NCBI RefSeq assembly: GCF_009834535.1
Contig: NC_045696.1
Span: 41,232,001 to 41,296,000, forward strand
Source of the DNA: Camelus ferus
Taxonomy: Eukaryota
Length of the DNA: 64,000 nt
Direction of reading: 5' to 3'
Shown here: piece by piece, positions 27,402 to 63,250 of the stretch
Position numbering within the stretch: the first letter of the stretch is position 1
Layout of the letters: every line of letters begins with the position of its first letter
The notes under the pieces: model-generated
What the model saw: the letters and a program-made list of their open reading frames with translations, nothing else
Told to the model about the DNA's origin: nothing
Databases searched by the model: none
Made by a program: the position numbers and the translations under genes

Positions 27402-27491
27402 TGAAAAATTACATTCTTAAAAGAAAATGTGCTTCCTGCTTAAAAAAAAAGGAGGAAAAGTTATTAGCCAGAGGTGGAGAAACAGCATTAC

Positions 27492-29772: not shown

Positions 29773-29853
29773 CCAGAGTGGTTTGCAGCTCCTCTTGACT
29801 AGAACTCGGTGAAATCATAGGAATGAAAGGGCTGCCTCGTGTCTCTAAAGGAG
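29773..29853 (-). CDS. ABI3BP: ABI3BP exon (81 nt)
   Basis: tttgcag|CTCCT...CTGG|gtaaat; APLETRGSPFIPMISPSSSQEELQTTL. Confidence 0.94.
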
Positions 29854-30663
29854 CTGCAAAAAACAAGTACCAAGGTTGTCAGTCTTTAGATTCAAAGGCC
29901 AGTACCCAGCCAGAATAATATTATATGAGATTCCTTTATTTGAAATAGAAAAATGAAAACGTTGAGTGAGTCATGGAGAAGAAAGTTAAGTGTGCATAGA
30001 ACCTTCAGGAAAACGATCGTGGAATGTTAGAATAATGGTTCTCAACTGTTTTTTTCCACCAGGGTAGATAACAAATGACATTTGGTGCTTGGCACACTCC
30101 ATGACGGTACGCAGTTAAGGTGGGGTGGGTTAGAAGTGGTCCTGGCTGTGTCGGCTGCAGCTCTCCCACCCAAGAGAGTGCACAGGATTACAGCAGGAGA
30201 AAGAATGCCATCACCGCCACCACCATCTGGAAGCTGCTCAAGTTTATTTTTAAAAACAAACCATTGGCAAATCTCAGTACTTTGACCAATATTAACAATA
30301 ATTACTTGCCAGCACCTTTCACAACATGCTAGGGTGTTGTAACACCACAGCCAAGAACCACTAAACCAGCAGAAAATGTTAACTAGACAGACAGGAATAA
30401 GGTGGAATCATTTAGAACACGGAGACAGGTGAGGTAGGTGACGAGGGACCTGGTAGTGAGCTACCTTAAGTTGGTCTTCAGACCACACCTTTAGAACAGT
30501 GAAACCATTGCCTTTCTGTTTTGGAAAGAGTAAAAATAATGAGATGAAATGATGAAGAGGATGGAGAACAGATGACGTTTCCACGTGATCACTTGAGAAA
30601 GACCAGCAATCTTGATGGCAGCCAAGCAAACAATGAGAATGGGTCAAGCAGGAAGACCATTAC

Positions 30664-30711
30664 CTATCGTTGGCTCTGGGAGGTCAGTTTCAAAGGTAAC
30701 AGGTTGCAGAA
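30664..30711 (-). CDS. ABI3BP: ABI3BP exon (48 nt, short type-A module)
   Basis: ggcctag|TTCTG...ATAG|gtaatg; VLQPVTFETDLPEPTI. Confidence 0.88.
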   Translation of the reverse strand, partial: FCNLLPLKLTSQSQR

Positions 30712-31077
30712 CTAGGCCAAAAACAAACCAAAGAAATCGGTTTATGAGGATCACTACCCTGTGAAATAAAGCTGGTTTCTGTGTTTCTACATGAATCCAT
30801 TTGAACATTTAAACATTCTCTTAGACTCATAATAAATATGAGAAAATTCTGTATCTTAGATGCCACCCAGGGAACTTGGTTTAGCTAAAACTTTGAAGTT
30901 CTTATTCCCTGTCACTTTGAGGAAAATTTTTGAGTAGGCACCCAGATTTCTTACTTAAAAGTATATTCACAGTTGGAAGGTAGTTGTTTATATTTTGAAA
31001 GAAGACGAAAGTGGTTGGCTCAGTTAATAATTATGTCTTACAATTTTTTTTAAATTTTAACCTTTTTTTTAACTGAA

Positions 31078-31165
31078 GTATGTGTATGACTGAAATGTTA
31101 TGCAGTACACCAGAAATTGACCCAGCATTGTAAACTAACTATGCTTCAATAAAAAAAAAAAAACA
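31078..31165 (+). mobile_element. L1 extreme 3' end with poly(A)
   Basis: tgtatgactgaaatgttatgcagtacaccagaaattgac...ttgtaaactaactatgcttcaataaaaaaaa; same family as 48990-49210. Confidence 0.75.
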
Positions 31166-31423
31166 AAGGTTAATTTTAGTATGATCTACTATTCAGCCAA
31201 AATACTTCCATGGAAGATGAACCAATTTTATACTATTCCCTACTGAGGAAAAAATTTTAAACAGATCGTGTGATTAACCTTCCTCCAAAGAAATATATAT
31301 CTTATATCCATAATTTTTTCTGAACTTCTTCCACAACACAATCATTACAAAAATATATTTACCTCAGGAAGATTTTTTTGAAAAATATACTACCTAACTG
31401 GGAAGATAAAACAATTCATTTAC

Positions 31424-31483
31424 CAGTTTCTCTCTGAGAGACTTCAGTGTCTGGTTTATGGGGAAGGAGCACATCTCTTGGAA
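31424..31483 (-). CDS. ABI3BP: ABI3BP exon (60 nt)
   Basis: ctttcag|TTCCA...ACTG|gtaaat; VPRDVLLPHKPDTEVSQRET. Confidence 0.92.
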
Positions 31484-37396: not shown

Positions 37397-37471
37397 CAGG
37401 TGAAGTATAGGACACTTCTGGACTTGGTGATGTCCTTGGCTTCAGAGTAACACGCTGCAACACCTGAGGAG
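37397..37471 (-). CDS. ABI3BP: ABI3BP exon (75 nt)
   Basis: ctttcag|CTCCT...CCTG|gtaaat; APQVLQRVTLKPRTSPSPEVSYTSP. Confidence 0.93.
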
Positions 37472-37761
37472 CTGAAAGAGAGAGCTCAGATCATGAGTCA
37501 TTTGGTTTCAGCATCTCCCAGTCATACTTAACACATAAGGTATGACAAAGTATAAGCCTGACCACTGATTGAAAAAAAAAAGTACTGAAATGGGAGTTAG
37601 ACTGGAAAAGAAAACCCTTAAGCTCTAGAAATCGACTGGTTAGAATTCCAGATACTTAAAGAAAAATGAAATCTAAGAAACAGCAAAATTTGACTAAGGG
37701 TAGGATGAAGAGTTTTTTTGAAATCTTCATTTCAGAAAAGACAGCAATTAACTTAATGCAA

Positions 37762-38555
37762 AAGGTGTCTTTTTGAAGTAGGGTTCCTTCTAGATATATG
37801 CCCAGGAGTGGGATTCCTGGGTTATATGGTAAGTCTATTCCTAGTATTTTGAGGAATCTCCATACTGTTTTCCACAGTGGCTGCACCAAACTGCATTCCC
37901 ACCAGCAGTGTAGGAGGGCTCCCCTTTCTCCACAGCCTCTCCAGCATTTGTCATTTGTGGACTTTTTGAATGATGGCCATTCTGACTGGTGTGAGGTGAT
38001 ACCTCATCACAGTTTTGATCTGCATTTCTCTGATAATTAGTGATACTGAGCATTTTTTTCATGTGCCTATTGATCATTTGTATTTCTTCCTTAGAGAATT
38101 GCTTCTTTAGGTCTTCTGCCCATTTTTGGATTGGGTTGTTTGTTTTTTTCTTATTATGTTGTATGAGCTGCTTATATATTCTGGAGATAAGCCTTTGTCG
38201 GTTTCATCGTTTGCAAAAATTTTCTCCCATTCCATAGGTTCTCATTTTGTTTTACTTATGGTTTCCTTTGTTATGCAGAAGTTTGTAAGTTTAATTAGGT
38301 CCCATTTCTTTATTCTTGCTTTTATTTCTATTGCTCAGGTAGGCTGCCCTAGGAGAACATTTTTGAGATGTATGTGAGATAATGTTTTGCCTATATTTTC
38401 TCCTAGGAGGTTTATCGTATCTTGTCTTATGTTTAAGTCTTTGATCCATTTTGAGCTGATTTTTGTGTATGGTGTAAGGGAGTGTTCTAGCTTCATTGAT
38501 TTACATGCTGCTGTCCAGTTTTCCCAACACCATTTGCTGAAGAGACTGTCTTTAT
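37762..38555 (-). mobile_element. Relatively young L1 ORF2 C-terminal fragment
   Basis: Minus-strand ORF contains [13 protein letters not shown]...[14 protein letters not shown], the canonical L1 ORF2p C-terminal region; truncated at both ends. Confidence 0.92.
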
Positions 38556-39931: not shown

Positions 39932-40006
39932 CTGGCTGTGTTTGTGGGATTCGTGGGTGTGGAGATGTTTTTGGTTTAGGAGGAGCTCGCGGTATCTCCT
40001 TGAGAG
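39932..40006 (-). CDS. ABI3BP: ABI3BP exon (75 nt)
   Basis: tttttag|CTCTC...CCAG|gtaaat; ALKEIPRAPPKPKTSPHPRIPQTQP. Confidence 0.93.
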
Positions 40007-42242: not shown

Positions 42243-42317
42243 CCGCGTCGGTCTGAGGCTCATCTGGGCTGGGTAGGATTACAGTTTGGGAAGGCAGAGG
42301 TGACGTTTCTATGGTAA
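42243..42317 (-). CDS. ABI3BP: ABI3BP exon (75 nt; alternative in-frame acceptor 9 nt in)
   Basis: ccttcag|TTACCATAG|AAACG...GCGG|gtaaat; VTIETSPLPSQTVILPSPDEPQTDA. Confidence 0.9.
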
Positions 42318-43051: not shown

Positions 43052-43099
43052 CTAGCGTGGTCTCGGGCGGTTCAGACACATATGTAATAGATTCCACAG
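43052..43099 (-). CDS. ABI3BP: ABI3BP exon (48 nt)
   Basis: gatgcag|CTGTG...CTAG|gtaatg; AVESITYVSEPPETTL. Confidence 0.9.
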   Translation of the reverse strand: MWNLLHMCLNRPRPR

Positions 43100-43563
43100 C
43101 TGCATCAAAACAAAGGAGAACAATTTAAGAAACTGTAAGATGAAGCTATAGTCAAATATGTCTTTCCTGAATATCAACACACCTAATTCTCTTGAGAATT
43201 TGCATCCTATTTTCGCAGACAGGACAATGGACTTAGATAAGAAGAAAGAGGACCAAGAGGGAAATCGTTTTCTATAACCCCAATCCTCCAATTAATATTT
43301 ACGCTTTAACTGTCACTAACTGACCATCCGATGTTATTCTGCCTCATTATTTACATACCACAGAGAAACTGACACTTATTTCTGTTTTCAGAGCGTCAAC
43401 TATTATTTTTTAAATCCAAGAATTTTGGAAGCTATAGCTCTTCAAAGCCTTTCAGTTGTAGAACAAATACCCTAGTTTGAACTTTCACGTTCCATGAAAC
43501 ACAACAGGTGCTAATAAACATTTATTTTGAATAAATGAATCAAAGCATGAAGACCTTTACCAC

Positions 43564-43635
43564 CTTCAGTCTTTGTCTCCTCTGGCCTGAGTGGTGCTTT
43601 GGCAGCAGGATATACATAATCTGTTCCAGTCAGTG
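43564..43635 (-). CDS. ABI3BP: ABI3BP exon (72 nt; tandem donor gives 75 nt from 43561)
   Basis: ccctag|CACTG...GAAG|gtg|gtaaag; ALTGTDYVYPAAKAPLRPEETKTE. Confidence 0.88.
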
Positions 43636-44298: not shown

Positions 44299-44355
44299 CT
44301 ATCGCTTCCCTTGATGACTCAGTGCTAAATGTAACCGATCCCAGGACTTCAGAAA
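44299..44355 (-). CDS. ABI3BP: ABI3BP exon (57 nt)
   Basis: ttgctag|TTTCT...ATAG|gtaatc; VSEVLGSVTFSTESSREAI. Confidence 0.87.
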   Translation of the reverse strand, partial: FLKSWDRLHLALSHQGKR

Positions 44356-45244: not shown

Positions 45245-45319
45245 CGGTTTGACTTTGTGTAATTTCTAGGCTTGGTGATGTCACTGGTTTCAAGATAAGA
45301 GTTTGCAGTTCAGTGGGAG
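45245..45319 (-). CDS. ABI3BP: ABI3BP exon (75 nt)
   Basis: ctttcag|CTCCC...ACCG|gtaaat; APTELQTLILKPVTSPSLEITQSQT. Confidence 0.9.
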
Positions 45320-47513: not shown

Positions 47514-47573
47514 CTAATGTTGTTTCTGGAGCTTCAGAACTATGAACAACCGGTTCAAAGCTTGTAGCAGGAA
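47514..47573 (-). CDS. ABI3BP: ABI3BP exon (60 nt, type-A acidic module)
   Basis: tggatag|TTCCT...TTAG|gtaatg; VPATSFEPVVHSSEAPETTL. Confidence 0.9.
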   Translation of the reverse strand, partial: FLLQALNRLFIVLKLQKQH

Positions 47574-48170
47574 CTATCCAAAAACAACATGAACACAGGA
47601 AAGTTTAAACACTCATAGAAAGTCTTTAACTTTTCTTTCAAAATGTTAGCTCAAATGACAAGCAATTTTTTTAAACTTTTGAATTCACAGAAAGCTGTCT
47701 CTGTAGCTAGAAACAATTCCTTGCAGAAGGTAAGCACAACCTTCGAACTCTGCTATGAATCTTAGTATCATCAACATGAGGCTTTCCTAGGAAGGGTGTT
47801 TGATTTTCTGGTTCTAATATGAAAGCTTGGTTTGTTCAGGCGATATACAGGAAAAAAAATATGAAAGTAATGTTGCATTTCTGGGAAACGGAAAAAAATA
47901 ACTATGTTTATGTACTCTTGGCTATAATAAATAGATCACATACATTTAGATGTAGATATAGCCATAAATAACCAGAAGTGATTATGCCAATCTTGCTATA
48001 AATAAGAGACACCAAGAACCTCATCCAGGAAGCAACTGCTAACCATACCTCAATGCCTTGACTCTTAGGGAACATGAAGGATATTACTGTCCATCAGAGG
48101 CATTGCTCTGGGACATCACTGGGACAGACTGCTAGGGCTCATCCCTCAAACCATGGAATACCACATTTAC

Positions 48171-48251
48171 CCAGTTTGGTCTGAGGTGCTTCAGGGCTTG
48201 GTGTGGTTTTAGGTCTGGGACGTGGACGGCGAACTCGTGATGTTTTAGAAG
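48171..48251 (-). CDS. ABI3BP: ABI3BP exon (81 nt, type-B basic module)
   Basis: ccttcag|CTTCT...CTGG|gtaaat; ASKTSRVRRPRPRPKTTPSPEAPQTKL. Confidence 0.91.
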
Positions 48252-48876
48252 CTGAAGGAAGAAATGCTGGATTACTCTAGTGAAGGTGGTTTTGGAAATA
48301 ACATTCTAGATTATCTAAACTATGTTACATTTTCTTGAAATTTAAGGCATATATTTTTAAGATTCAAATACTTTATCCTATTTTGTTAATTCTTTTATCA
48401 CTGAAGATTCTTGAGAGGTAAAACTCACACATAAAAGAATCTTGTAAATCTGTAACTTTAAGAAAGGTAAGGACTATAATCAAATCGTAGGTGGTTCACA
48501 CTAACAAATTTAAATATGTAAAAAAATCCATGGTACCAAAGAAATTGTTACGATTTAGTAGAGAGTACAAAGACATTACCAATTTGTTTTAAATTCAGCT
48601 TTAAATGTGATCACAGTTTAGGCAAAAGTATGTGACACAAATTCAAATCAAATTACATGGTAGACAGATATTCTGTCCATGCTTTCCTTTTAAAACCAAC
48701 AGGTAGCTTCTTTTTAGAATCTTCAATACTCTTAATAAAAAGAAAAATAAAGTTGAAGAACAGCAAAGGATGATCAGACCGTCTTATGAAGCTGGTGATA
48801 ATGTGATTATGATGATGATGGAATGGGTTGACAATGAGCAGGAGAAAAAGTGTTGAGGAACATAGAATATCATTAC

Positions 48877-48936
48877 CTAATGTTGTTTCTGGAGCCTTGG
48901 TTCTAAGAGTGACAGGTTCAAGGACTGTAGAGAAAA
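48877..48936 (-). CDS. ABI3BP: ABI3BP exon (60 nt, type A)
   Basis: tgaccag|TTTTC...TTAG|gtaatg; VFSTVLEPVTLRTKAPETTL. Confidence 0.89.
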   Translation of the reverse strand, partial: FSLQSLNLSLLEPRLQKQH

Positions 48937-48989
48937 CTGGTCAAAAATAATAAAGTAAATGAGAGATTTTAAAAACTCATTTGAAGACT

Positions 48990-49210
48990 AATTGCAGATA
49001 CTAACTACTATATATAAAATAGATAAACTACTATATATAAAAGATGCAATAGTTCTACTGTATAGCACAGGGAACTACATTCAATATCTTATAGTAACCT
49101 ATAATGAAAAAGAATATGAAAATGAATATATGTATGTATTTGTATGACCAAAATATTATGCTGTACACCAGAAAACGACACATTGTAAACTGACTATACT
49201 TCAATAAAGT
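48990..49210 (+). mobile_element. L1 3' end
   Basis: ctactgtatagcacagggaactacattcaatatctt...gctgtacaccagaaa...ttgtaaactgactatacttcaataaa. Confidence 0.85.
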
Positions 49211-50120
49211 CAATTTTTAAGCTTCAGAACTGAGAGAAAAGAGACACACACTTGCTCTTTGCAAATTTGACCAAATTGTGGCTACTATCCATTAATCTCA
49301 TAAATAGACATAGCATTGCACCTTGCTCAGTACCACTGTGGTCAGCAAGAATTGTAGATGTTTGATTAGCTGACTCTTGCTAGTATAAAGATTCTGATGG
49401 ACAAGTCTTTTATACATTTATATAATATATACTTTCCTAACTCTACTAGAAAATGCATTTATCAGTCTACTTATGCTTCTAAGCAAGTTGAGATAAATGT
49501 CCACTATTTTGTCTACTATTTCAATACTCATGTGTATAATAATGAGTTCATATGTTTGGACGGATAAGGAGCAATGTGACGAATAGAGTGTGGTCATCAA
49601 AACTTCAAAGTGGTCCCTGATTCGATAAACATAAAGAAACTCTGTCAAGCCCTGTTAGAGAAGGAGAGTCAGCCTACTCTCTCGTGAAAACCCATCATTT
49701 AAGTGTTCAAGACTTAGGCACACTTAAATATTTGACCATTAACTAAAAACATCATTCCCTGAAACAACAGATCCACAAAAATAATCACATAGATCCTAAT
49801 CTGATAAAAAGTAACATGATCAAAGAAACATGGTATTATCACAATTGATGAGGAAAAAGCAAGTGATCAAAATAAGGGATAGATGGAAGTTCACGTTTGG
49901 AAGGAAGCTTAAAATAGCCAGTGTTGTTCTAACAAATGTACATGATCACATGACACAATGTTGAGCAGTTTCCTGGCAGTTGGACATCCTGAAATTAGTA
50001 TATACCCAGTTCTCTTAAGTTCAACAGATAACTTGACACAGAGCTTAGCATAGTTGCAAGATGCAGGAGAACTTGTGGCTACAATGGTATGACAATGAGC
50101 AGGAAAAGCACTATTCGAAG

Positions 50121-50172
50121 ATTTCTGGAGCTTCAGTTCTAGGAGTACCAGGTTCAAGATCTTTAGTAGGAA
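50121..50172 (-). pseudogene. Dead type-A exon copy (pseudo-exon)
   Basis: Encodes VPTKDLEPGTPRTEAPE, but the acceptor reads ttgactgg (not ...cag) and the last codons plus GT donor are deleted relative to paralog 48877-48936. Confidence 0.8.
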
Positions 50173-50587
50173 CCAGTCAAAAGCAATAAAATAAACACTT
50201 GTGAAAAGTCAGCAAATTAAATCTCACCAGTAAAATATTGCTTCAATAGGTATATAACAATCTGAAATTTTTTTCTGAAATTACATACTTCTTAAAGATT
50301 TGTTCACCTAAAGCTAGATAAATGTTCTTTTATGAGACAGTTTCATAGCCTACACAATCTGGTAAATATCTCAATAGAATCAACACGACATTCTCCTAGG
50401 TGTCTAAGCACCTAATTCCAATCACTGTAGAAAACTGACCTAGGAAACTTGTTTAAACATCTCACCAAATATATATTCATGTAACTATTCTGGCAATTGC
50501 TGGCTTTTCTGTAGAAGTTTTAAGATAAAAGCACGTTTAGTTTTCATCACAAGAAAAAGATATATTTTTTCTATTCCTTTAATTTTG

Positions 50588-50735
50588 CATCTATATGAGA
50601 TGATGGATCAAACTAAGTAAAGTTATTGTGGTAATCATTTCATGACGTATGTAAGTCAAATCATTATGCTGTATACCTTAAACTTCTAAGTGCTGTATGC
50701 CAATTAGATATCAATAAAACTGGAAGAAAAAAAAT
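50588..50735 (+). mobile_element. Old L1 3' end
   Basis: tattgtggtaatcatttca...aaatcattatgctgtataccttaaac...tcaataaaactggaagaaaaaaaa. Confidence 0.75.
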
Positions 50736-51765
50736 GGCATGTCTAGAGAAGCCTAGATAAAATAGCTTTTATGTTTGAAAGGAGGCATAGAAAAGAATTA
50801 AGCAAAGTGAACCTGGTAGAGCTTGTTGAGAATTCATACTTGGAAACAGGCTGAGACCTTGTTTGAGGCAAAGTTACTCAGCAAATCAGGATAAGGAACA
50901 TCTAGTATATGGAGCCCTGTAGAGCAACTCTCTGCTCTAATCATAAAAATGGGCACCCTGTATAGGTGGGAGAGACTGTCACAGGAGAGACCACTGATGC
51001 TTCTAGGGTCAGGTCCAGACTTCTGAGTCATACCTTCAAGGACTTTCCTCAGCTGCTCTAATGGACCCTTCCAAACTCAGCACTACCATCATCACTTAGA
51101 AGCAGAACCTCCCTTGTGCCAGAAGCCTGTCATCTCTGGTTGGTCTCTCTATCTCCTCTCTTTCTTTCTCTGTTCTTCTCCATGATTTTAAGACTCAACT
51201 ACTTTCCAACTCTTTATTCCCATCCTTCACAAACTTTCCTCTCTTTAAGCTCAGAGATGCTTACAACCCCTGCAAAACACAGCTCAATTTGTGCAGACAT
51301 ACTGCCTTGGTTCAGTCTTTTAACGTTTCACATTGGGGCAGGTTCTGAATCTGACGATACTACAGACTGAGAAGTAAACACAAGCTGCCTACTTCGGTGA
51401 TATTGTCACAGCTGTCGATGGGCTGTGGGATGATGGAAGGCACTTCATGTTTGTTTCTTGAAACAAAAACACTTGGTTCCATTTAAGACACTCTGTCTTT
51501 AAGAATGGAATGAAATAAGAAAAAGTAAAAAAAACACACAGTAAGAGAGTAAGTCCTTAAGGATAAAGCACAAGGTATTCAGCTGCCACACAAGCCTCCA
51601 CCATCATGTTCTCCTTTGTGACCTCACTGTGGGAGGCAGCAGCAGATCACTTTGTGAGTCTCCCCATAGACAGCTCGCCTGGGCTATCACTCTCACTACC
51701 AGTGTCAATCCCAGACTCCCAAGAGCTGCAAGGACTCACTCCTTTAACAAGAAACCCACATTTAC

Positions 51766-51849
51766 CCAGCTTGGCTTGAGGTGCCTCAGGAGTTGGTGTG
51801 GTTTTAGGTTTGGGACGTGGACGACGGGTCCGTTTTGATGTTTTAGAAG
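51766..51849 (-). CDS. ABI3BP: ABI3BP exon (84 nt, type B)
   Basis: tcttcag|CTTCT...CTGG|gtaaat; ASKTSKRTRRPRPKPKTTPTPEAPQAKL. Confidence 0.91.
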
Positions 51850-52632
51850 CTGAAGAGAGAAAACCTTCAGTTACTATGGAGTCTGTAGTTCAGAATCTAT
51901 GGGTAGCATGACACGTGGCTCTAAATAATATAACTTACTACATTTCCTCCTATTTTAGGAAATGTGGCTTATAGACTTTTTAATTTAAAGCTTTCACCCT
52001 TATTATAATAGTATATATATATATTTACAATTGAAAGTTCATTGGGAGTGAGTCATATATAAAAGTAAGTTACTTATTCAAGAAGTGAAGAATCATTCGT
52101 AGAACTCTTCTTTGAATAAAAAAGATAAGAATCACTTCTAATATATTTTGGCAGTGGTGATAGCCAGGTACAAACTCTTTGACAGTTTACTAAAATCAGA
52201 CCATGTAATTAACTAAAATGTCAGTTAAAGAACAAATACCAGATAGTTAAAAAAAAAAAACAAAACAGTAGACCTTTAGATCCACAAAGAACCCCCCTGA
52301 CAACATAACAGTTATTAGAGTCAAGAGAACTGCTTTAGAAATCCAGCTTTAACAAAACATTGGTTAAGAAACACATAAGATGATGAAAGCAATTTCAGAT
52401 GGTTACATGTACAACAGTTGACCTGAGTTAGGTTCATGCGTGGTTCTCTTAAAAACAAGGGATGCCTTATTTTAAGAGTCAGAGTCTTCAGTGTTTTTAA
52501 GGATGAAGAATATAACGGAGTGACAATATAACGGAGCTTATGAAGCAAAAGAATTTGTAGCTATGATGTTGATGGAATGAACCTGACAATGAGAAGGAAA
52601 AGCACTTACTGAGGATCAGAATGTGTTATTAC

Positions 52633-52692
52633 CTTTTGTTGTCACCCAAGCCTCAGTTCTGAACGTAACAGGTTCGAAGTCTGCAGTGGGAA
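52633..52692 (-). CDS. ABI3BP: ABI3BP exon (60 nt, type A)
   Basis: tggtcag|TTCCC...AAAG|gtaata; VPTADFEPVTFRTEAWVTTK. Confidence 0.89.
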
Positions 52693-53632
52693 CTGACCAA
52701 AAGTATTACAAATAAGCCAAGTGATTGTTTTAAATAAAAGAAAACTCAAAACATTTACTTCAAAAAGAATCTCAAGTTTCTAGTACTACATAGCAACTTT
52801 TAAAAACAGTTAAACTAGAAAAGTAAACAGTTGATTTCCTAAAATTTGGCCATACCTAAGTCAGGTATCTATTTTCTTATTCCTCCATCTTTGATTATTT
52901 GATTTTAATTAATAAGCCCAAGTGGGATGTGTGGTTATTGCTAAGAACTTACCTTTGGAAAGAGACTGAGCTCCTTTTATATCATCTTTTATCATAAAAT
53001 ATTTTTTGAAGACAAAAATCACCTTTTAATTTAAGAAATAAAGATTAGGAATGATAAAGTCTCACAGAGGAGCCTGATTGGGCAACAAAAAGGTTAAGAA
53101 CTGGTGCTCAATTTGAATGGATAATGAAGGAAGGTCTCACTAAATCTGAGATTCATAATTTAATCTTTCAATCTTTGGTACCTGTTCCATATTAACTAGT
53201 AAAATAAGAACATATTATTACCGAAATAGAAACAAAACAACAAAATACTATGCAAGTAGGGAAAAGGTAGAAACATAGATGGGCAGTGAATGGATCCTCT
53301 TGGCCTTATGAGAGCTATTAATGGCTTTATCTGTCTAGATAAGAAGTAGATCTGTGATAAGTTTGAAAACCAGTTTTACCAAAAACGACTGCTGCAATGA
53401 AACACAGAATGGCACTATTTCAAATAGGCTACATGGCAAATAAGTATCCTGAAGTAAGTTCCTGCAGGACTTGTTCTATGAAAAACAGCTGGTAACTTAT
53501 GAGTTTTCATAATTTTAAGAGGAAAATAGATGAACGACCACAAACAATAAAAGCACTGTCACACGAAGCAAGATGAAACCCTGGGTCTGACAATAAGCAG
53601 GATAAAGCTTGTTGAAAACACAGTGTCATTAC

Positions 53633-53689
53633 CTAATGCTGTTCCTGGGGCCTCTGGTCTAAGAGTGACAGGTTCAAGGTCTGTGGGAA
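53633..53689 (-). CDS. ABI3BP: ABI3BP exon (57 nt, type A)
   Basis: tggtcag|TTCCC...TTAG|gtaatg; VPTDLEPVTLRPEAPGTAL. Confidence 0.88.
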   Translation of the reverse strand, partial: FPQTLNLSLLDQRPQEQH

Positions 53690-55009
53690 CTGACCAAAAA
53701 ATAATAACAGTAAATCAAAGAGATTTAAAAATACATGAAAACTTAAAACATTCACATCCCAACAAAACTTGCTTGTGTATCATCCTTTCTACAGAAACAA
53801 AGAAACAAAAAATAATTGAGAGAAAGAGTAGATGACTGTTCTTTGAAGATTTGGCCAAACTATAGTCATGGTCAGTCTTAGGCTTAGCCTTGGAACTATC
53901 TCGAGGATCTTAAACATAAAATTCTCCTAGTTTTTAGCTAATGGATTATAATTAATATGGAAAACTCTATCCTGGAAAATATTTTTAGGCATTTACCTAA
54001 CAGTGAGAAAAGAAACTCTCTTTAAAATAATCTGATCAACCAGTACTCCTGTAGAAGCTGAAAATGAGCACTTACTGTTTTCAAGTAAACATGGGCACAA
54101 CAGACAGTGTAAGTTTGAAACAGACGTAAGAATTACTGGTTGAAGTAGACTCTGATGATCTTGCCAAGAATTCATCTATGGAAAGAGTCTGAGACCTCTG
54201 CCCAAACCAATGGCACATAAAAGAGCAGGATAAAGATGGTTACTCAGGCTGTAAAACTCAGTAGAGCACCTCTCTGGCCTAAGACCAGAAAAAGTGGAAA
54301 TCAAAGACAGTTGCTGTCTCTGTGTCAAACCTAAATTCCTGAATCAGGTCCTCAAAATCCTCTTTCAACTGATCAAATGGACCCATCCCAATGCAGCATC
54401 ATCAACGGCCATGTTTTGACCACCTGAAGTAGGACAGTCTGTTCTGGGCACCCCCCGCCCCAGCCCCTAACCACCACATGTCCTGTCCTGCCCTGGTCCA
54501 CGTTTCCCTCCACTCATTCAAATTCTGTAGTGGGCCCCAAGTCCAAGGTCCAAGTCCAGTCCACTTTGATCTTTCCCTTCATATCGTGCAAACATATTCT
54601 CAACGTTACTGTTTTAGAACTAAAGTAAGTCTCCTACAGCTAGCACATCACCCATAGATGCCAATATTGGTCCAGGAATATGCAAGGGACTTACAATTTG
54701 TTTATTCACTTGAACTGAATCTACAGGCTCTGCTAAAGAAGTTTTACCTTTAAGATGCAAGTGGAATTCGACAGTAAGAAATATACTAAATGTATATCAA
54801 AGAAGACTCTCACATGGAAAGAATAAGGTATTCTGGTACCAACTGTATCTCATCCAGTCATATTCTCCCAGACACCTGGGTAGAGGAGACATCACTGATG
54901 CCACCGCATGACGTCACGCTTAGAGAGAATAAGAGCTTGGCACTGCTTTGGGTTCTCACTGGGACAGGCTACTAGGGCTCACCCTTAAACCAAGGAATCA
55001 CACATTTAC

Positions 55010-55093
55010 CCAGTGTGGTCTGAGGTACTTGAGTGCTCCAAGTGGCTTTAGGTCTGGGATGTGGACAAAGAGGTCTTTGCGATGCTTTGGTAG
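55010..55093 (-). CDS. ABI3BP: ABI3BP exon (84 nt, divergent type B)
   Basis: tctttag|CTACC...CTGG|gtaaat; ATKASQRPLCPHPRPKATWSTQVPQTTL. Confidence 0.78.
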
Positions 55094-55907
55094 CTAAAGA
55101 AAGAATAGCCTTTGTTATTCTATGTCTTATGGCTCTGGATGCTAAAGGAGAGGTTTTTCCAAACCCTATTAGATTTTTCAAAGTTCCATGAAATTGTAGT
55201 TTAAAAGTTTCACTCCTTTTACTGCCAAAGCATCTTGGTTTTATCAGAGGGTACTTTGGAGGCAAACTCATGAATATAGTCAAGTTACTCATTCAAGGCA
55301 TGAAAATTAGCACTTGTAATGAGATACATCATAGAACTTCCTCATTGGGAAAAATGATTAAGAAGGAAGACTCAGTTCTGGTGCAAGGGGAGGGGAAGAG
55401 AGGGTCACACTAAGGAAAAGGCTTACAATTTAAAATTTCAGAATTGGATAATTTCCTATCTATCAAATTAGTAGTAAAACACATCAGTACGTAAAACACC
55501 AACGAAGAAACAAACATACCATGCAAACAGTTTTTTAAAAGTCTAGAAACTTAGATGTGCAAAGGAGCTTAAGAAAAGCTATTATTGCTGGTCAGCTTAG
55601 GTCAGAAATAGATCCCAATTTGCTGTAAACTCAGCTTTAACACAAAACACTGTTCAACGAAGCACAAGACAATGTGACAATGTCAAATACGCTACGTGGC
55701 AGGTAAATGTTTTGAACTCAGCTCATGCCTGCTCTCGTAAAAACAGGAAACTTGTTTTTAAGAGGCTTCCGCACTCTTCAGATGAAGAAAGTGACTGAAT
55801 GGCAATGAAGGATGGTCATCGCGTGAAAGAGGAAAAGCTACATGATGGGGATGGAGACTTAGTGGACCTACGAGCAGAAGTACCAGGGAGGGGCACAGGG
55901 TCATTAC

Positions 55908-55955
55908 CTAGTGCTGTCCCAGAGGTCTCCGTTGTAAAAGTAACAGGTTCAAGGT
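55908..55955 (-). CDS. ABI3BP: Putative ABI3BP exon (48 nt) using an internal acceptor; ancestral 60-nt acceptor lost
   Basis: Donor CTAG|gtaatg intact; ancestral boundary at 55967 is preceded by ttattaca (no AG); internal ttcctgttacag| gives in-frame DLEPVTFTTETSGTAL. Confidence 0.55.
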   Translation of the reverse strand, partial: TLNLLLLQRRPLGQH

Positions 55956-56088
55956 CTGTAACAGGAATGTAATAAACAAAAGAGTTCAATCTTTAGTGTA
56001 TGAAGAGCCATATTGTTCACTTCAAAATGAATCCTGCCACTGTAACATTGCCTCTAGAATAACCTTCAAAATTTTTTTGAATGAAAGG

Positions 56089-56460
56089 TGTTAGGGACTG
56101 AGTTGTGTCTTCCCAAAATCTATGTTGAAGCCCTAACTCCCAAGGTGACTATATTTGGAAATAGGGCCTCTGAAGATGCAGTTAAGGTTAAATGAGGTCA
56201 TAAAGGTGGGGCCCTAAGCCAACAGGACTAATGTCCTTAGAAGAGGGAGCGACACCCAGGATGTGCATATGCAGAGAAAATGCCAGGGGAGGACACAGTA
56301 AGACGGTAGCCACCTATAAGCCAAGGAGAGAGGCCTCAGGAGAAATTAAACCTGCTAATACCCTGATCTTCCAGCCTCCAGAGCTGTGAGAAATAGATTT
56401 CTTCTGTTTCAGCTCCCTAGTCTATGACATTTTGGTACAGGCAGCTCTTACAAACTAACA
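56089..56460 (+). mobile_element. MaLR LTR (MLT1A/B-like), near full length
   Basis: tgttagggactgagttgtgtc...tatgttgaagccctaactccc...ttaaggttaaatgaggtcat...aagccaaggagagaggcctcagg...ccagcctccagagctgtgagaaata...aaactaaca. Confidence 0.88.
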
Positions 56461-57666
56461 GAAAAAGAAATCAATTGTTTTGCTCACACTTGCCCAAACT
56501 TCAGTAAGGGATTTCTTCATCTTACGAGATAGTAATTACCTTTGGTCTCTGTTTAGCAGCACAAGAGGAAAACAGTTCCTGTAGTTAGTGCTTGATGATC
56601 TGAATCTACTGTGGTAGACTTTAGGATAATTTTAGGTATTTGCTTAAATACATTTCTAACAAACCTCAAGAAGCATATGAAAAACTAACCTATACTTCTG
56701 TGGATGCTGAATTTAAAAAATCTTCTATGTATATCAAATAATGGTTGCAGAAAAAGTTCCCAAAGAACCAAGCAGACATTACACTAATAGCCAAAAATAG
56801 CTATGATAATCTTGCTGAGAAAATTCAGCTTTGGAAAGATCTTGTGACTTCTGTCCAAACAAGAAGACTAAGTAAGGGGCAGCCGCTCATCCTGTGGCAT
56901 CCAGTGAAGCATGTGTCCACTCTCAGTGCAGCAAACATTATCCAAGTGTGGGAAGAAGAGGTTTCTGATGCTCATTAAGAACAACATCAATCTCATTCAA
57001 CTTCCCACATTGTCATTCAAATGCATCATCCCAACAAAAATGTTTTGCCTGGCACTTAGAAGAAGCAGGAACTCTGCCCACCTCCGGCTGCATGTACATA
57101 CATCCTATTATTTCATCTTTGCTCATGCTCACCTCTCCACTTGTGCAAATTCTGATATGATTTCAAGGCCCAAACTCCTTCCCTGATGTATTGAAATCCA
57201 TATTGACTTTACTTCTTTAAGACCTGCTATAGAGGTATGAGATGGAAGAATTTGGGGTCCCTCAATCACCAATTAGGGAAGAACTACAGGCACCCATTTT
57301 GGATTACACATGAGTTAGAAGTAAAATATTAAATACTGTCCATTTGAAAAAAAGGATTTAACAAGTCTAACATTTAATGTTTAGGTACCTAAGAAAAACC
57401 TTGATTTTTGAAAACACACCCTGCCGTATTTTCATTCTCTAGGCTTTTCATGCAGTAAAATAATTGTGCTCAACTATCCTGCACACTGAAAAGTGTAACA
57501 CGTCCCCCACTACCTAGAATCAGAGAGAAGATTATGTCTCTTCCAAACATGAACTCCCTGTGAAGCCAAAAATCATTTCACGATTCCCTCACTAGCGGTA
57601 CGTGGTGGTACATTTTCAACCAGTGACAGGCTACCAGGCTCCTTAAACCAAAAACCCTCCTTTGGT

Positions 57667-57750
57667 CTGGTGTGGTCTCAGCTAGATGTGGGCTTGGTAT
57701 GGTTTTAACTTTGTGTTGTGAATGATACGTTCATTGGCATGTTTTTGCAA
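57667..57750 (-). pseudogene. Dead type-B exon copy (pseudo-exon)
   Basis: 84 nt aligns to type-B exons; acceptor reads ctac, donor reads accaaa, in-frame TGA. Confidence 0.72.
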
Positions 57751-58540
57751 GTAGAAGATAAACTTAGATACTTTAAAGCTTAAGCTTCTGCAAATTATAG
57801 GTTTTTGAAAAAAATCTTCTTTAAGTTCTCCAAAACTTGATCAGTTTTCCTTAGTTTGAGGAAATGTATCTTTATAGTCTGCAAGTTTGCCTCTACCATG
57901 CTATTGTATCTTCCTCTGTTATTGAAGGTATTTAGGGGACAAAGTTGACATATAAAATGAAGTTATTAATTCAGATAGCCAAGAATGATTTTTATCACAT
58001 CCTAGAGTTCCCTGACTGCATTTAAAAGGGTAAGAATCATTTCTAAACTATAGAGGAGGGTAAAGGGGAATCACATTCATCTTAAGAATGGGGCTTACCA
58101 TGAAAACTTATTAGCCTTCATCACATTATCTGTTAGAAAATTCACTATAAATGTATTATCAAATGTTGACAAAACAACAAAAAAGTAGGCAGATTAAAAA
58201 CAAAAGGCAGGTGTACAAAGAATATGAAGAGACTTCCCTGTCACAAACTGGTTAGCACAGATCAGGATCAGGGTTCTCCTAAACAGATAAAATTTATCTT
58301 AACAGAGAACACTGGTTGAGCTCAGAGCACTAAATAACATGAAAAAAAATTTAAATAAATTCACAAGGCGGGTAAATATCCCAAACTAGCTCCAGGGCTG
58401 GCTCCCTTTAGAATAAGAGGTAACCTGTTTATGCATGTTTAACTCGCAATAATGTAACTGAACAGCGGTGGAGTGGAAAGAGCAGAGGGTTAGGCAACGA
58501 GCAGAAAAAGTACTTGCTGAAGGTCAGAAAGCAGCATTAC

Positions 58541-58600
58541 CAAATGCTGTCGCTGGAGCCTCTTTTATAGGAGTAACTGGTTCAAAGACTGTAGCCGGAA
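58541..58600 (-). CDS. ABI3BP: ABI3BP exon (60 nt, type A)
   Basis: tggtcag|TTCCG...TTTG|gtaatg; VPATVFEPVTPIKEAPATAF. Confidence 0.88.
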
Positions 58601-59254
58601 CTGACCAAAAAAAAAAAAAAAAAACAATGAATGTTAAACATTTACACAATCTCAGAGGTACATGGTGTATCTGCACGCAGGTACCAATTTATCCCTTAGG
58701 AGGGGCTGTCTATGTACTCAGATAACTGTCCCTGAGAAGTGCCCTAGAAGTTCTTCATTCTGTGATGATGCTCATCTAAGTAATGGACCAAAGTAGACCT
58801 ACCCATCTTGCCAAAAACTCCTCTTTGGAAAGAGACCATGAACTTGGCCCATCTGGGGTCCTTAAGAGAACAAGGCAAGGGGCAGCCATTCATTCTGTGA
58901 TGCAGCCGTATGCCTCTGTCCCTCCCCCAAGGGAAAGTGTACCCAGTATGGACACTGATGATGCTCATGTGAAACCCAAAGTTCTAAGATCAATATTAAA
59001 AATTACTTTCAACTGGTCCTATGAACCTTCTGAGCTGTAGGGGCTTCAATAAAGTATTCTGATCAGCACTTATAAACCTGGTAGCTTTTATCGGTCAGGG
59101 AAGATTCTGTCTCCCTTCACTGGTCCGTCTCCTCTAATGTCCTGTCTTTCTGACACTATTCATCCTTCATCCTCCTAGTTACCAAATTTAGTGATTTCAA
59201 TGCTCAAGTCCTTCCAAACTATTCTGGCCAACCCGGACTGTTTCTTTAAACCAC

Positions 59255-59448
59255 GAATCAAACTATGGCCCTGAGGACAAATCTTGCCTTGTTTTCATAC
59301 AGCACACTTCCCTTCCATGTTTAAGTGATTGTTAAAAAAAAAAAAAAGAAAAAAGAGAAAAATATGTGTCAGAGACTATTTGGGTCACAAATACCCAGTA
59401 TTGACTATCTTGCCCTTTACAGACAATACTTGCCCAACTCCTGCCCTA
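59255..59448 (+). mobile_element. MER58-like remnant (duplicated at ~62750-62940)
   Basis: caaactatggccctgagg...tattgactatcttgccctttacagacaatacttgcccaactcctgccctag. Confidence 0.6.
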
Positions 59449-59704
59449 GGGCTGTACCATGAGTTATACACCACAAGTGCATCACCCTGCAGATAAGTAT
59501 TTTTAACTAAGTTCCAACTTGACTCTCTTAAAAATCGATGAGTTGTTATTACTCTTCAATATATTAAACAGTAACAGAATGACAATAGACAAGAACACAA
59601 GAGTCTTGTGAAGCAGGAGAAGATGAGCTTATGATGGTGATGAAATGATGAAATGGGTCTGAAATGAGCAGAAGCAGATGCTGACGGACATAATGTGTCA
59701 TTAC

Positions 59705-59764
59705 CTACTGTCGTCCCAGGAGCCTCGGTCCTAAGAATACCTGGTTCAGGGATTGTGGCAGGAA
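59705..59764 (-). CDS. ABI3BP: ABI3BP exon (60 nt, type A)
   Basis: tgatcag|TTCCT...GTAG|gtaatg; VPATIPEPGILRTEAPGTTV. Confidence 0.88.
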   Translation of the reverse strand, partial: FLPQSLNQVFLGPRLLGRQ

Positions 59765-60734
59765 CTGATCAAAAGTAATCAAAGAAATCAAAGAGATTTT
59801 TGTGAATGCATGGAATGTCAGCAAAGTCATCCTACCGGTAACAATAATGCTTCTAAGGGAGAAGGGGGAGGGGGAGGATGGATGACACACAAAAGCTGTA
59901 ACACCAAGAGGCAGGAACTCTGGAGGGGGGGGAAGGGGTGGTGATGGGGACGAGGGGGTTATTCTGGGTTCTGTCCTCCACACATAGAACAGAGCTGAAA
60001 AGAAGCCCAGACTCTACTCACTAGGTGACTAAGTCCTTAGTGAAAACAGTGGCATTTAATACATTAAGGTGAGAAACAACCTCTCAGATTGTGGTATCAC
60101 AGTGGACTCGGCATCTCCAGTGCTAAGCAGAGCAAAAGCAGGGGCCTGGCTAGAAGTAAGGATCACTGAAGCCCACTGGATCTCACTTGAGCTCTTGAGT
60201 AGACATCCCAGCCCCCTTTAATTCACCCTACAGGCCTTACCAACAGGCGCACATCAACAAGTCATCCTCTGTCTGGGACGCCGGCTTCCTTCAGCACATT
60301 CCCTGTTTATTGAGTCTTGTTGCCTCATCCTTCCACTCATCCAAATTCTGTACTAATTTTTCCTAATTATCCTGGATCTTTTCCCTCTCCAAGTACTTAT
60401 TCTACTTCTAGCATAAGATTTGGACTATTTGAGACATTATCTTACATTTGTATCAACATGCTGCCTTATGCTATTTTCTACCTGTTTACAAAAGATACAG
60501 CTTTTGATTACAACTATAGCACAAAATGATAGGGAAAGAAAACATAATGCCTACTTTTGATGTGTCTCCCAGCTGCCTATATGGTTATGTGGATATAGAA
60601 GGGTTTAATAGTAAGAGTACGTTTTACCATTAAGAATGTATAGTATAAAGACCGGTATCAATTATGTGCTTAGAATTTAGGGTCCCAACTGAGGTAGAGG
60701 CTTGGATTCCTTAACCCAGAAACCACATATTTAC

Positions 60735-60825
60735 CCAGTTTGGTCTGAGGTACTTCTGGATGGGGTGTGGTTTTAGTTTTGGGACGTGGACGACGGGGTC
60801 TCTTTGTTGTTGTTGTTGTTGGCTG
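60735..60825 (-). CDS. ABI3BP: ABI3BP type-B exon with intact splice sites but frame-disrupting length (91 or 88 nt)
   Basis: ccttcag|CAG|CCAACA...CTGG|gtaaat; family frame reads PTTTTTKRPRRPRPKTKTTPHPEVPQTKL but starts in phase 0 rather than phase 1. Confidence 0.6.
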
Positions 60826-61161
60826 CTGAAGGAAGAAAATTTAGGATTAATATGGTGCTGATGGCTCCATTAACTTGAATAGAATGATGTAACATGGCTC
60901 TAAGCTTTCTAAAACTGGCTGGAGTTTCTTTGAGTGGAGACAGCTTTGTTACTTCAGTTTGATATGTTCCTCTTTAACAGATTGAAAGGTGTTCCTTTAT
61001 AATTAAGAATACTTTAGACATTAAGAGTTACATTAAAGTTACGTTTAAGATGATTGTGAAGCCACAAATTTCTTTACAGTTGCTCCCTGGGGGTGTATGG
61101 TGGTACATTTTCAGCCAGTGACAGGCTACCAGGCTTCTCAAACCAAGGACCCTGCTTTGGT

Positions 61162-61245
61162 CTGGTGTGGTCCCAGCTACACCTGGACTTGTGGTGGTTT
61201 TAGGTTTGTGTTGTGAATTATACGTCCATTGGGAAGTTTTTGGAA
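61162..61245 (-). pseudogene. Dead type-B exon copy (duplicate of 57667-57750)
   Basis: 84 nt, open (PKTSQWTYNSQHKPKTTTSPGVAGTTP) but acceptor reads ctac and donor reads accaaa. Confidence 0.72.
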
Positions 61246-62034
61246 GTAGCGACGATAAAGTTTAGTTCCTTAAAGCTTATGCTTCTTCAAATATTAGGTT
61301 TTTTAAAAAAAAATCTTTAAGTTCTCCAAAGCTTGGTAGATTTCAGTCTGCTTCAGGAAATGTAAGTTCCTAGTCTGAAAAGTTTGCCCCTACCCTGCTG
61401 CTGTATCTTCCTTTCATATTGGAAGTATTTTGGGGACAAAGTTGACATATAAAATGAAGTTAATTCAGAAAGTCAGAATTGGTGTTTTTATCACATTCTA
61501 GATGTCTCTGACTGCATTAAAAAGGTTAAGAACCATCTAAACTATGGTGGAGGGTAAGGGCAGTTAGATTCACCTTAAGGGAGGAGCTACTATGTAAACT
61601 TATTAGACTTGATCACATTCTCTGTTAGACAATTCACTGAAAACATACCACCTGAATATTAACAAAAGAACAAAAAAATGAGGCAGATAAAAAAAGGCAG
61701 CTATACAAAGGATATGAAAAGAGACTTCCCTGCCATGGGCTGGTTAGCACAGATCATGATCAGGGTTCTCCTAAATAGATAAAATTTACCTCAACAGAAA
61801 ACTCTAGTGGAGCTAACAACATTAAATGACATGAAAAATTTTTAAATAGGTTAAAAGGGTGGGTAAATATAGATCCAGGCATAGATTTCTAGTTTTTAAA
61901 ACAATAGGTATCTCACTTTATGCATGTTTAACTCACAAGAAAAAGAACGTAACTGAACAGCAATGCAGTGGAAAGAGCAGAAGTTTGGCAACGAGCAGAA
62001 AAAGCACTTGCGGAAGGTCAGAAAGCGGCATTAC

Positions 62035-62094
62035 CAAATGCTGTCGCTGGGGCCTCTTTTATAGGAGTAACTGGTTCAAAGACTGTAGCTGGAA
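62035..62094 (-). CDS. ABI3BP: ABI3BP exon (60 nt, type A; duplicate of 58541-58600)
   Basis: tggtcag|TTCCA...TTTG|gtaatg; VPATVFEPVTPIKEAPATAF, two synonymous differences from paralog. Confidence 0.88.
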
Positions 62095-63190
62095 CTGACC
62101 AAAAATAACAACAGTAAAAAATGAAATATTAAACATTTATACAATCTCAGACGGGACATGGTGTATCTGCTCTCGGGTACCAATTTATCCCTTAGGAAGG
62201 GTTGTCTTTGTACTCAGATAACTGTCCCTGAGAAGTGCCCCAGAAGTTCACATTCTGTGATGATCCCCGTCTAAGTAATGGGCCAAAGTAGACATACCCA
62301 TCTTGCCAAAAACTCATCTTTGGAAAGAGATCATGAACTTGGCCCATCTGGGGTCCTTAAGAGAAGACGATAAGGGGCAGCCATTCATTCTGTGGTGCAG
62401 CCGTATCCCTCTGCCTTACCCCAGGGAAAGCGTATGGGGTATGGATACTGATGATGCTCACGTGAAACCCAAAGTTCTAAGTCCAGTAGTAAAATTCACT
62501 TTTCAACTGGTTCTATGAACCCACTGAGATGCAGGAGTGTCAATAAAATATTCTGATTAGTACTTAGAAACCTGAGAGCCTTTATCAGTCAGAGAAGCCT
62601 CTGTCTCCCCTCACTGGTCTCCTCTCATGTCCTTGTCTTTCTGATATACTTCATCCTTCATTCTCTGGTTACCAAATATAGAGTGACTTCATGGCTCAAG
62701 TCGTTCCTAACTCTTCTGGCCAACCCTGACTGTTTCTTTAAACCAAACATTGACAGACTCTGGCCCTGAGGCCAAAACTTGCCCATGGCTTGTTTTCATA
62801 CAGCCCATTTCTATCTTTAATTTGTTGTTTAAAAAAAAAAAAAAAAGAGAAAAAATGCATCAGAGACTATTTGGGCCTCAAATCCCCAATATTGACTAGT
62901 CTTGCCCTTTACAGACAATACTTGCCAACTCCTGCCCTAGGGCTGTACCATGAGTTATACACCACAAATATATCACCCTGCAGATACATATTCTTAACTA
63001 AGTTCCTACTTGACTCTCTTAAAAACCAATGAGTTTTTTTTCTAACACTTTTCAATACATTAAGAGGTAAATAAGTGACAATTGACAAGAACATAAGATT
63101 CTCAAGAAGCAGAAGATGAGGTTATGACGGTGATGAAATGGGTCTGAAATGAGCAGAAGCAGATGCTGACAGACATATTGTGTCATTTAC

Positions 63191-63250
63191 CTACTGTCGT
63201 CCCAGGAGCCTCGGTCCTAAGAATACCTGGTTCAGGGATTGTGGCAGGAA
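63191..63250 (-). CDS. ABI3BP: ABI3BP exon (60 nt, type A; identical to 59705-59764)
   Basis: tgatcag|TTCCT...GTAG|gtaaat; VPATIPEPGILRTEAPGTTV. Confidence 0.87.
   Translation of the reverse strand, partial: FLPQSLNQVFLGPRLLGRQ

What the first reader, a model, noticed from the sequence alone, without database searches (positions are those of the whole stretch)
29773..63250. Modular stalk built from two paralogous families of symmetric phase-1 exons with family-specific donor sequences
Seen: apart from 60735-60825, every traced exon is a multiple of 3 and phase 1-1. Type A exons (48-60 nt, acidic, VP.T..EPVT..EAP.T) nearly always use a GTAAT(G) donor. Type B exons (75-84 nt, mostly basic, RRPRPKPKTTP.PE.PQTKL, plus older relatives) use GTAAAT. 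Established: symmetric exons can be skipped or duplicated without frameshift, and ABI3BP is an extracellular matrix protein with a Pro/Thr-rich region. Inference: the array works as a combinatorial length and charge tuner, with Thr-rich acidic spacers interspersed with Arg/Lys clusters that could bind glycosaminoglycans. It would be adjustable both by splicing and by duplication.
Basis: partly seen in the sequence, partly recalled or inferred. Interest (0 to 1): 0.7.

Follow-up and report, generated by a model that had tools for sequence, protein, structure and literature searches.

The report
Camel ABI3BP modular exon stalk
This is the known, alternatively spliced spacer region of the matrix protein ABI3BP, built from two old families of small exons that can be dropped without breaking the reading frame; camels and alpacas carry extra copies of some of them, but the proposed sugar-binding role is untested.

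Summary
The array is real. It is the Pro/Thr-rich stalk of camelid ABI3BP (TARSH), on the minus strand. 22 of 23 exons are symmetric phase 1-1; the 91-nt exon is in frame in public camelid models. 11 of 12 A exons use GTAAT and 10 of 11 B exons use GTAAAT; none has +5G. Both families have counterparts in bird, turtle and lizard proteins. Only 6 of 11 B exons are net basic, and all 8 downstream exons are symmetric too.

Much is already in print: ten human B exons listed as a frame 1-1 cluster lost in mouse and rat, and regulated splicing of the block in cartilage and stromal cells. Human junction data show a ladder, neither one block nor free mixing: whole-block skipping (41-52%), two internal exits from B exons, and single cassettes.

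Not found in my searches: camelids have 4+4+3 copies of three exons where other mammals sampled have one, lack five others, and show signs of gene conversion.

It works like titin PEVK. Glycosaminoglycan binding and donor-based charge control are untested, and no camel reads were laid. The scan had no earlier ABI3BP note.

The parts
63191..63250 (-). A exon, 60 nt (third camelid copy of slot 12A); donor GTAAAT through one extra base relative to its paralog at 59705
62035..62094 (-). A exon, 60 nt (slot 14A, second copy), donor GTAATG
61133..61245 (-). decayed B pseudo-exon, splice sites lost, in no model
   Evidence: (E 2.9e-07)
60735..60825 (-). core B exon (fourth copy of slot 11B), 91 nt here, in frame in public models; starts with an (ACA)n poly-Thr tract; donor GTAAAT
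59705..59764 (-). A exon, 60 nt (slot 12A, fourth copy), donor GTAATG
59701..59923 (.). 223-nt run identical to the paralogous unit near 63187-63410; probable gene-conversion tract
57559..63993 (.). tandem segmental duplication, period about 3.49 kb (57559-60519 vs 61055-63993), 87% ungapped identity
58541..58600 (-). A exon, 60 nt (slot 14A, third copy), donor GTAATG
57638..57793 (-). decayed B pseudo-exon, paralog of 61133-61245
   Evidence: (E 3.6e-10)
55908..55955 (-). A exon (slot 15A) shortened to 48 nt: the family acceptor AG is mutated and an in-frame AG 12 nt downstream is used
55010..55093 (-). core B exon, 84 nt (slot 16B), net +4
53633..53689 (-). A exon, 57 nt (slot 17A)
52633..52692 (-). 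A exon, 60 nt (slot 19A), donor GTAATA
51766..51849 (-). core B exon, 84 nt (slot 20B), net +8; an in-frame donor 6 nt downstream is used in 67 of 70 models that match this junction
50122..50203 (-). A pseudo-exon (slot 21A): acceptor AG and donor lost; a live module in human, whales and bovids
   Evidence: (E 5.9e-15)
48877..48936 (-). A exon, 60 nt (slot 22A)
48171..48251 (-). core B exon, 81 nt (slot 23B), net +7
47514..47573 (-). A exon, 60 nt (slot 24A)
45245..45319 (-). older 75-nt B-type exon (slot 25), net -1
44299..44355 (-). older A exon, 57 nt (slot 26A), donor GTAATC
43561..43635 (-). exon of unproven family (slot 27); models use three in-frame donors (72, 75, 81 nt); several skips land on it
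43052..43099 (-). older A exon, 48 nt (slot 28A)
42243..42317 (-). older B exon, 75 nt, net -4; last exon of the skippable block
39932..40006 (-). older B exon, 75 nt; hub acceptor where whole-block and partial skips land
37397..37471 (-). older B exon, 75 nt, kept in short forms
31424..31483 (-). 60-nt exon with a B donor; family not shown
30664..30711 (-). older A exon, 48 nt; absent from many short models
29773..29853 (-). 81-nt exon with a B donor, weak B match (p 0.015)
3266..27569 (-). eight further ABI3BP exons (27492, 22989, 21384, 14300, 12673, 10215, 9635, 3266), all symmetric 1-1; the last reaches into the second FN3 domain

Best explanation
The array encodes the disordered Pro/Thr/Ser-rich spacer between the N-terminal FN3 region and the C-terminal FN3/TARSH_C region of secreted ABI3BP. 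It grew by duplication of exon-plus-intron units from two ancestral exons (a 25-residue KPKTSP-type unit and a 16-20-residue EPVT unit), so each family inherited its own donor. Splicing sets stalk length as a ladder: one upstream donor can jump the whole block to the acceptor at 40006, some internal donors exit early to the same acceptor, and a few exons are single cassettes. Camelids added rungs by duplicating a B-A-A unit to 11 exons and lost five other exons, and the copies were later homogenised. Shown: exon structure, families, copy-number change, human junction use. Inferred: the same ladder in camel tissue, O-glycosylation and an extended rod, and a role as an adjustable spacer with about +30 to +36 extra net charge when included.
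For: Gene identity. Structure and donors. Families. Whole-block skip in 41 of 287 parsed models from 26 genera; early exit from slot 11B in 9 models from 6 taxa; 48 distinct module strings among 94 camelid models. Human cartilage junctions into the hub acceptor: whole skip 52/41%, from 11B 16/13%, from 16B 9/7%, from the last block exon 24/39% in low/high-grade tissue (PMC9239745 suppl. table 8; shares computed; exon names are my mapping by length). Partial splicing-out of the disordered region during stromal-cell differentiation (PMC13518942). Camelids have 4/4/3 copies of 11B/12A/14A; no non-camelid genus exceeded 1 for 11B. Duplicated unit and 223-nt identical run. Loss of the cluster in mouse and rat (PMC5740500). 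Block length 636-696 aa, net +30 to +36, about 24% Ser+Thr.
Against: No camel RNA reads were laid, so camel splicing rests on computed gene models, listed longest first, whose junctions between near-identical copies may be mis-assigned. Donor class does not mark the block edge: exons 39932, 37397 and 29773 have GTAAAT yet stay in short forms. In models, A donors also exit to the hub (15A, 24A, 26A, 28A). Loss in mouse and rat suggests the block is dispensable. My parser mislabelled paralogous slots in distant species, so only copy counts and adjacency were used; it gave 2 for 12A in Rhinolophus and 2 for 14A in Cervus and Dama, not checked by eye. No function of long versus short forms turned up in the passages read.
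Confidence: 0.72

Rival explanations
1. Combinatorial charge tuner: A and B exons are chosen independently through their different donors, and B exons bind glycosaminoglycans.
For: 0 of 24 array donors have +5G against 6 of 7 downstream. +5 is invariant in 10 of 10 A and 11 of 11 B donors while positions +7 to +30 have largely decayed. 5'SS Balance (bioRxiv 2022.12.07.519539) is negative for 9 of 12 A exons and +1 for all 4 core B exons. Human 12A is a cassette regulated separately: 21% to 39% of 11B donor use. One XBBXBX motif in each of 3 of 4 core B exons.
Against: Balance differences are only one unit, and 5 of 7 older B exons score 0. 5 of 11 B exons are not basic. Whole-block skipping dominates. 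The older B set was partly defined by its donor. The TARSH + heparin search listed 3 papers, none on binding by title or abstract start. O-glycans could mask or outweigh peptide charge (general knowledge).
Confidence: 0.15
2. Nearly neutral turnover: a low-complexity linker tolerates any gain, loss or skipping of symmetric exons, and most partial forms are splicing noise from weak inherited donors.
For: Three pseudo-exons in the window and five slots missing in camelids; loss in mouse and rat; unrelated repeat expansions in tailed frog, pit viper and skate ABI3BP; RefSeq lists reach X50 and beyond.
Against: Exon order and both ends of the block are conserved from primates to whales and carnivores, and the same 11B exit recurs in 6 taxa and in human cartilage. 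Inclusion shifts reproducibly with disease and differentiation. 22 of 23 exons stay open and in frame.
Confidence: 0.2
3. Mutually exclusive cluster: only one B exon is used per transcript, as the listing in Hatje et al. 2017 might suggest.
For: Ten human B-type exons are listed as one MXE cluster, frame 1-1 (PMC5740500).
Against: Human cDNA FLJ56632 (BAG61771.1, P0047) carries six of those ten complete exons in one molecule; the rows are labelled candidates. I saw one passage and table rows, not the validation criteria.
Confidence: 0.04

Closest known systems
ABI3BP / TARSH (human ENST00000471714, 67 exons, 1786 aa)
   Same: Orthologous gene, same exon order, same skippable block and hub acceptor; human B exons already listed as frame 1-1.
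   Different: Camelids have 11 exons where human has 11B-12A-13B-14A, and lack slots 5b, 10A, 13B, 18B and 21A.
Titin PEVK region
   Same: Disordered spacer of many small exons, with 26-28-residue basic PPAK repeats alternating with acidic polyE, and length set by splicing (PMC8553726).
   Different: Intracellular spring of 114 exons under RBM20. No homology was tested or is claimed. ABI3BP is secreted and Thr-rich, and its acidic units are only mildly acidic. The ABI3BP + RBM20 search listed 4 papers, none on such regulation by title or abstract start.
Variable-exon stalks of CD44 and CD45, and class 1-1 exon modules of extracellular proteins (recalled, no call)
   Same: Symmetric exons build an O-glycosylated spacer whose length is spliced.
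   Different: Those are membrane proteins with fewer and less repetitive exons; ABI3BP has two interleaved paralog families with recent segmental duplication.
Lubricin (PRG4) KEPAPTT mucin domain (recalled, no call)
   Same: Pro/Thr/Lys/Glu-rich repeats in a secreted matrix protein.
   Different: Its repeats lie in one large exon; here each repeat is an exon.

Membership tests
ABI3BP/TARSH | FN3 domains plus the TARSH_C domain flanking a Pro/Thr-rich region | tested here: met
   Window exon 3266-3475 is 100% identical to camelid TARSH; camelid models carry PF21731 and PF00041 above cut-off; window exons map to those models.
Symmetric cassette-exon array | Exons 3n with the same phase on both sides | tested here: met
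   22 of 23 exons; the exception is in frame in other assemblies.
Symmetric cassette-exon array | Variable inclusion shown in RNA of this species | tested here: inconclusive
   Only computed camelid models and human junction tables; no camel reads were laid.
Mutually exclusive exon cluster | Exactly one exon of the cluster per transcript | tested here: not met
   One human cDNA holds six of the ten listed exons.
Titin PEVK-like element | Alternating basic and acidic exon-encoded repeats | tested here: inconclusive
   True for the core 47514-63250 (B +4 to +8, A 0 to -3) but not for older B exons; works-like only.
Titin PEVK-like element | Entropic-spring mechanics and a dedicated splicing regulator | not testable with these tools
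   Needs force spectroscopy and knockdown RNA-seq.
Heparin/GAG-binding motif | XBBXBX or XBBBXXBX pattern (recalled consensus) | tested here: inconclusive
   One XBBXBX in 3 of 4 core B exons and none of the longer type; no chance control was run.
Heparin/GAG-binding motif | Measured binding | not testable with these tools
   Bench assay needed.
Mucin-type domain | High Pro/Thr/Ser content | tested here: met
   PTS 0.29-0.55 per exon; 164 Ser+Thr and 131 Pro in 696 aa.
Mucin-type domain | Dense O-glycosylation | not testable with these tools
   The search listed 1 unrelated paper.
LUC7 left-/right-handed 5' splice-site classes | 5'SS Balance clearly negative or positive | tested here: inconclusive
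   A mostly -1 and core B +1, older B mostly 0; the paper quotes shares for scores of -2 or less and +2 or more.

The most novel reading that the evidence does not exclude
The two exon families are two separately addressable splicing classes. A donors lean to the exon side (AG|GTAATG) and core B donors to the intron side (G|GTAAAT); all lack +5G, and this has been kept while the flanks decayed. A change in one U1-associated factor ratio (LUC7L2 versus LUC7L3) would then shift the basic-to-acidic make-up and the exit point of the stalk. Camelids quadrupled the exon that serves as the main internal exit, adding rungs that gene conversion keeps alike.
Probability: 0.15. Interest if true: 0.6.

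Novelty: new variant of a known kind. Interest (0 to 1): 0.3.

Why it matters
ABI3BP splicing is among the leading splicing signals in osteoarthritic cartilage and is a listed breast-tumour splicing marker, yet the passages I read describe the block only as a disordered region. Naming its two repeat families, the hub acceptor and the exit exons turns those signals into defined isoform rungs that can be expressed and compared. The camelid expansion and the reported rodent loss give a natural series, and they warn that mouse models may lack this block. The architecture itself is familiar from titin PEVK and other spliced stalks, so surprise is modest.

Tried and rejected
No genome is held for the window, so the upstream part of the array was read from protein models only. 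Sequencing runs holding the stretch exist (19 of 24 rows, 9 studies), but none was laid, so they are not used as evidence. One primary paper was not held. DNA-level similarity could not place exons 45245, 43561 and 29773 in family B and showed no A-B similarity. Profiles from bird, turtle, lizard and echidna repeats placed 45245 (p 0.001) and weakly 29773 (p 0.015), but not 43561 (0.21), 31424 (0.12) or 55010 (0.084; placed by DNA instead). Those profiles were picked with motifs seen in mammals, so the test is partly circular, and the A profile had 4 units; downstream exons 22989 (p 0.01, B) and 21384 (p 0.006, A) also scored. No tree was built; clades rest on pairwise Z scores and profiles. 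A candidate 84-nt symmetric exon at 59836-59919 / 63322-63405 is in none of the 61 camelid models mapped and was not counted. SH3-ligand patterns are absent from the four core B exons. Literature searches without a paper on the camelid expansion or the donor classes: judged from listings; most subscription papers are not in the library, including early TARSH splice-variant work that I recall but could not read. No folding job was run because the region is expected to be disordered. Earlier scan notes held no ABI3BP entry and were not used.
Full report
Identity. The window holds part of a minus-strand gene. Its 210-nt exon at 3266-3475 is 100% identical to ABI3BP/TARSH of Camelus and Vicugna, and camelid models carry FN3 and TARSH_C domains. 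No genome is held. The gene runs off both ends of the window.

Observation. De novo scans and a 7-mer map of 61 camelid models give 31 coding exons, 23 of them in 29773-63250. 22 of 23 are 3n, phase 1-1 and open. Exon 60735-60825 is 91 nt from the first AG. 62 stored models contain its exact peptide after an Ala, which needs 90 nt, so this copy has one extra base; error or allele cannot be told. Of 12 A exons, 11 have GTAAT; the exception (63191) has one extra base relative to its otherwise identical paralog. Of 11 B-type exons, 10 have GTAAAT. A exons carry net 0 to -3; only 6 of 11 B exons are net basic. All 8 downstream exons are also symmetric 1-1, so symmetry belongs to the whole stalk. 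Models use other in-frame donors at 43561 and 51766.

Families. On exon DNA without splice sites, 9 core A and 4 core B exons group cleanly (mean Z 9-15 and 13-16 within, near 0 between), and intron flanks agree, as expected for duplication of exon-plus-intron units. Profiles from turtle, bird, lizard and echidna repeats match all 10 A exons tested (p 0.013 or less) and 7 of 11 B exons at p 0.003 or less, with one more at 0.015; 43561 and 31424 stay unplaced (partly circular). Both units therefore probably predate mammals. Tailed frog, pit viper and skate ABI3BP have their own, different repeat expansions in the same region.

Donors. No array donor has +5G (0 of 24, counting 27492), against 6 of 7 downstream. 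Position +5 is invariant in 10 of 10 A and 11 of 11 B donors while most later positions agree in about half of the copies, which hints at selection; the copies are not independent and the older B set was partly defined by its donor. By the 5'SS Balance score (bioRxiv 2022.12.07.519539; abstract and passages seen), 9 of 12 A donors are negative and the 4 core B donors are +1. The difference is small, and donor type does not mark the edge of the skippable block.

Copy number. I parsed 287 mammalian models into modules (the middle of the output was cut from view, one search used all rows). Bactrian, dromedary and alpaca models have up to 4, 4 and 3 copies of slots 11B, 12A and 14A, in the order BAA-BA-BAA-BAA. 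No other genus exceeded one 11B; counts of 2 for 12A or 14A in three genera may be parser errors. None of 94 camelid models has slots 5b, 10A, 13B, 18B or 21A; 21A survives as a pseudo-exon at 50122-50203, and two decayed B copies lie at about 57700 and 61190. The window shows the last five exons of the expansion as a 3.49-kb tandem duplication with 87% ungapped identity. Inside it is a 223-nt identical run (chance about 1e-11). All four alpaca 12A copies have Arg where three of four Camelus copies, and whale and buffalo, have Pro. Both point to gene conversion or unequal crossover; strong local constraint is the alternative for the identical run. Hatje et al. report loss of the cluster in the mouse-rat ancestor (PMC5740500, one passage; not tested here).

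Splicing. No camel reads were laid, so camel evidence is indirect. Among the models, 41 from 26 genera skip the whole block onto the exon at 39932-40006, 9 from 6 taxa exit there from 11B, and 94 camelid models give 48 module strings. These are computed models sampled by my searches, not frequencies. Measured junctions come from human cartilage (PMC9239745; passages; supplementary table 8, ABI3BP rows 1-31 of 41 seen). Mapping exons by length (my inference), the hub acceptor is fed by whole-block skipping 52% / 41%, by 11B 16% / 13%, by 16B 9% / 7% and by the last block exon 24% / 39% in low / high-grade tissue; 12A is a separate cassette. Stromal cells partly splice out the region during differentiation (PMC13518942; passage; supplement places 1-24 of 62). 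ABI3BP is also a listed splicing marker in breast tumours (PMC4446417, table passage) and a differential cassette gene in sheep muscle (PMC10682031, passage); which exon is meant was not seen in either. The ten human B exons were listed as a mutually exclusive cluster with frame 1-1 (supplement rows), but one human cDNA holds six of them.

How it most likely works. A graded spacer: including the block adds about 640-700 disordered residues, about a quarter Ser/Thr, net +30 to +36, between the folded ends of a secreted matrix protein. Length is chosen mainly by whole-block skipping and a few exits, and finely by cassettes and by alternative sites a few codons apart. Structure, families, copy change and human junctions are shown; glycosylation, reach and binding are inferred. 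The nearest working analogy is titin PEVK (PMC8553726, passage); no homology is claimed. Glycosaminoglycan binding rests on one short motif in 3 of 4 core B exons; a review of ABI3BP has no occurrence of heparin (PMC6426741, word search).

Verdict. The gene, its frame-1-1 exon cluster and its regulated splicing are known. The two-family donor pattern, the ladder reading and the camelid expansion with conversion were not found in ten searches of the held library. PMC7242645 (passages) concerns only intron 1. Supplements of the bioRxiv paper were not requested and could show whether ABI3BP exons respond to LUC7 loss. Interest 0.3.

Noticed in passing
window 59836-59919 and 63322-63405, minus strand: An 84-nt open, symmetric 1-1 candidate exon with a pyrimidine tract and donor GTAGGA lies inside the converted tract in both copies; it is in none of the 61 camelid models mapped.
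   Followed up: partly
window 60800-60822, minus strand: An (ACA)n tract encodes poly-Thr at the start of slot 11B; it varies from 3 to 7 Thr among copies and species, and one alpaca copy has a poly-Pro run.
   Followed up: partly
A exons, e.g. 58541-58600, 52633-52692, 48877-48936: Many A exons have an internal in-frame AG 9-12 nt after the acceptor, a ready route to 48-nt forms; it has replaced the lost acceptor at 55908.
   Followed up: partly
window 55010, 51766, 48171 donors: Three core B donors have a second GT 6 nt downstream, in frame; the one at 51766 has +5G and is used in most models.
   Followed up: partly
window 16266-16340, minus strand: A 25-residue stretch matched a camelid protein but fits no standard exon; probably the predicted start of the 300-aa Camelus ferus model.
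   Followed up: no
window 4421-4529 and 27319-27427: Two 109-nt copies at 81% identity, 22.9 kb apart, probably a dispersed repeat.
   Followed up: no
P0197, P0198/P0353, P0238: Tailed frog (2185 aa), pit viper (1959-2013 aa) and skate (2289 aa) ABI3BP carry independent long repeat expansions in the stalk.
   Followed up: partly
window 21384-21458: The only exon downstream of 27492 without +5G is absent from both human proteins examined.
   Followed up: no
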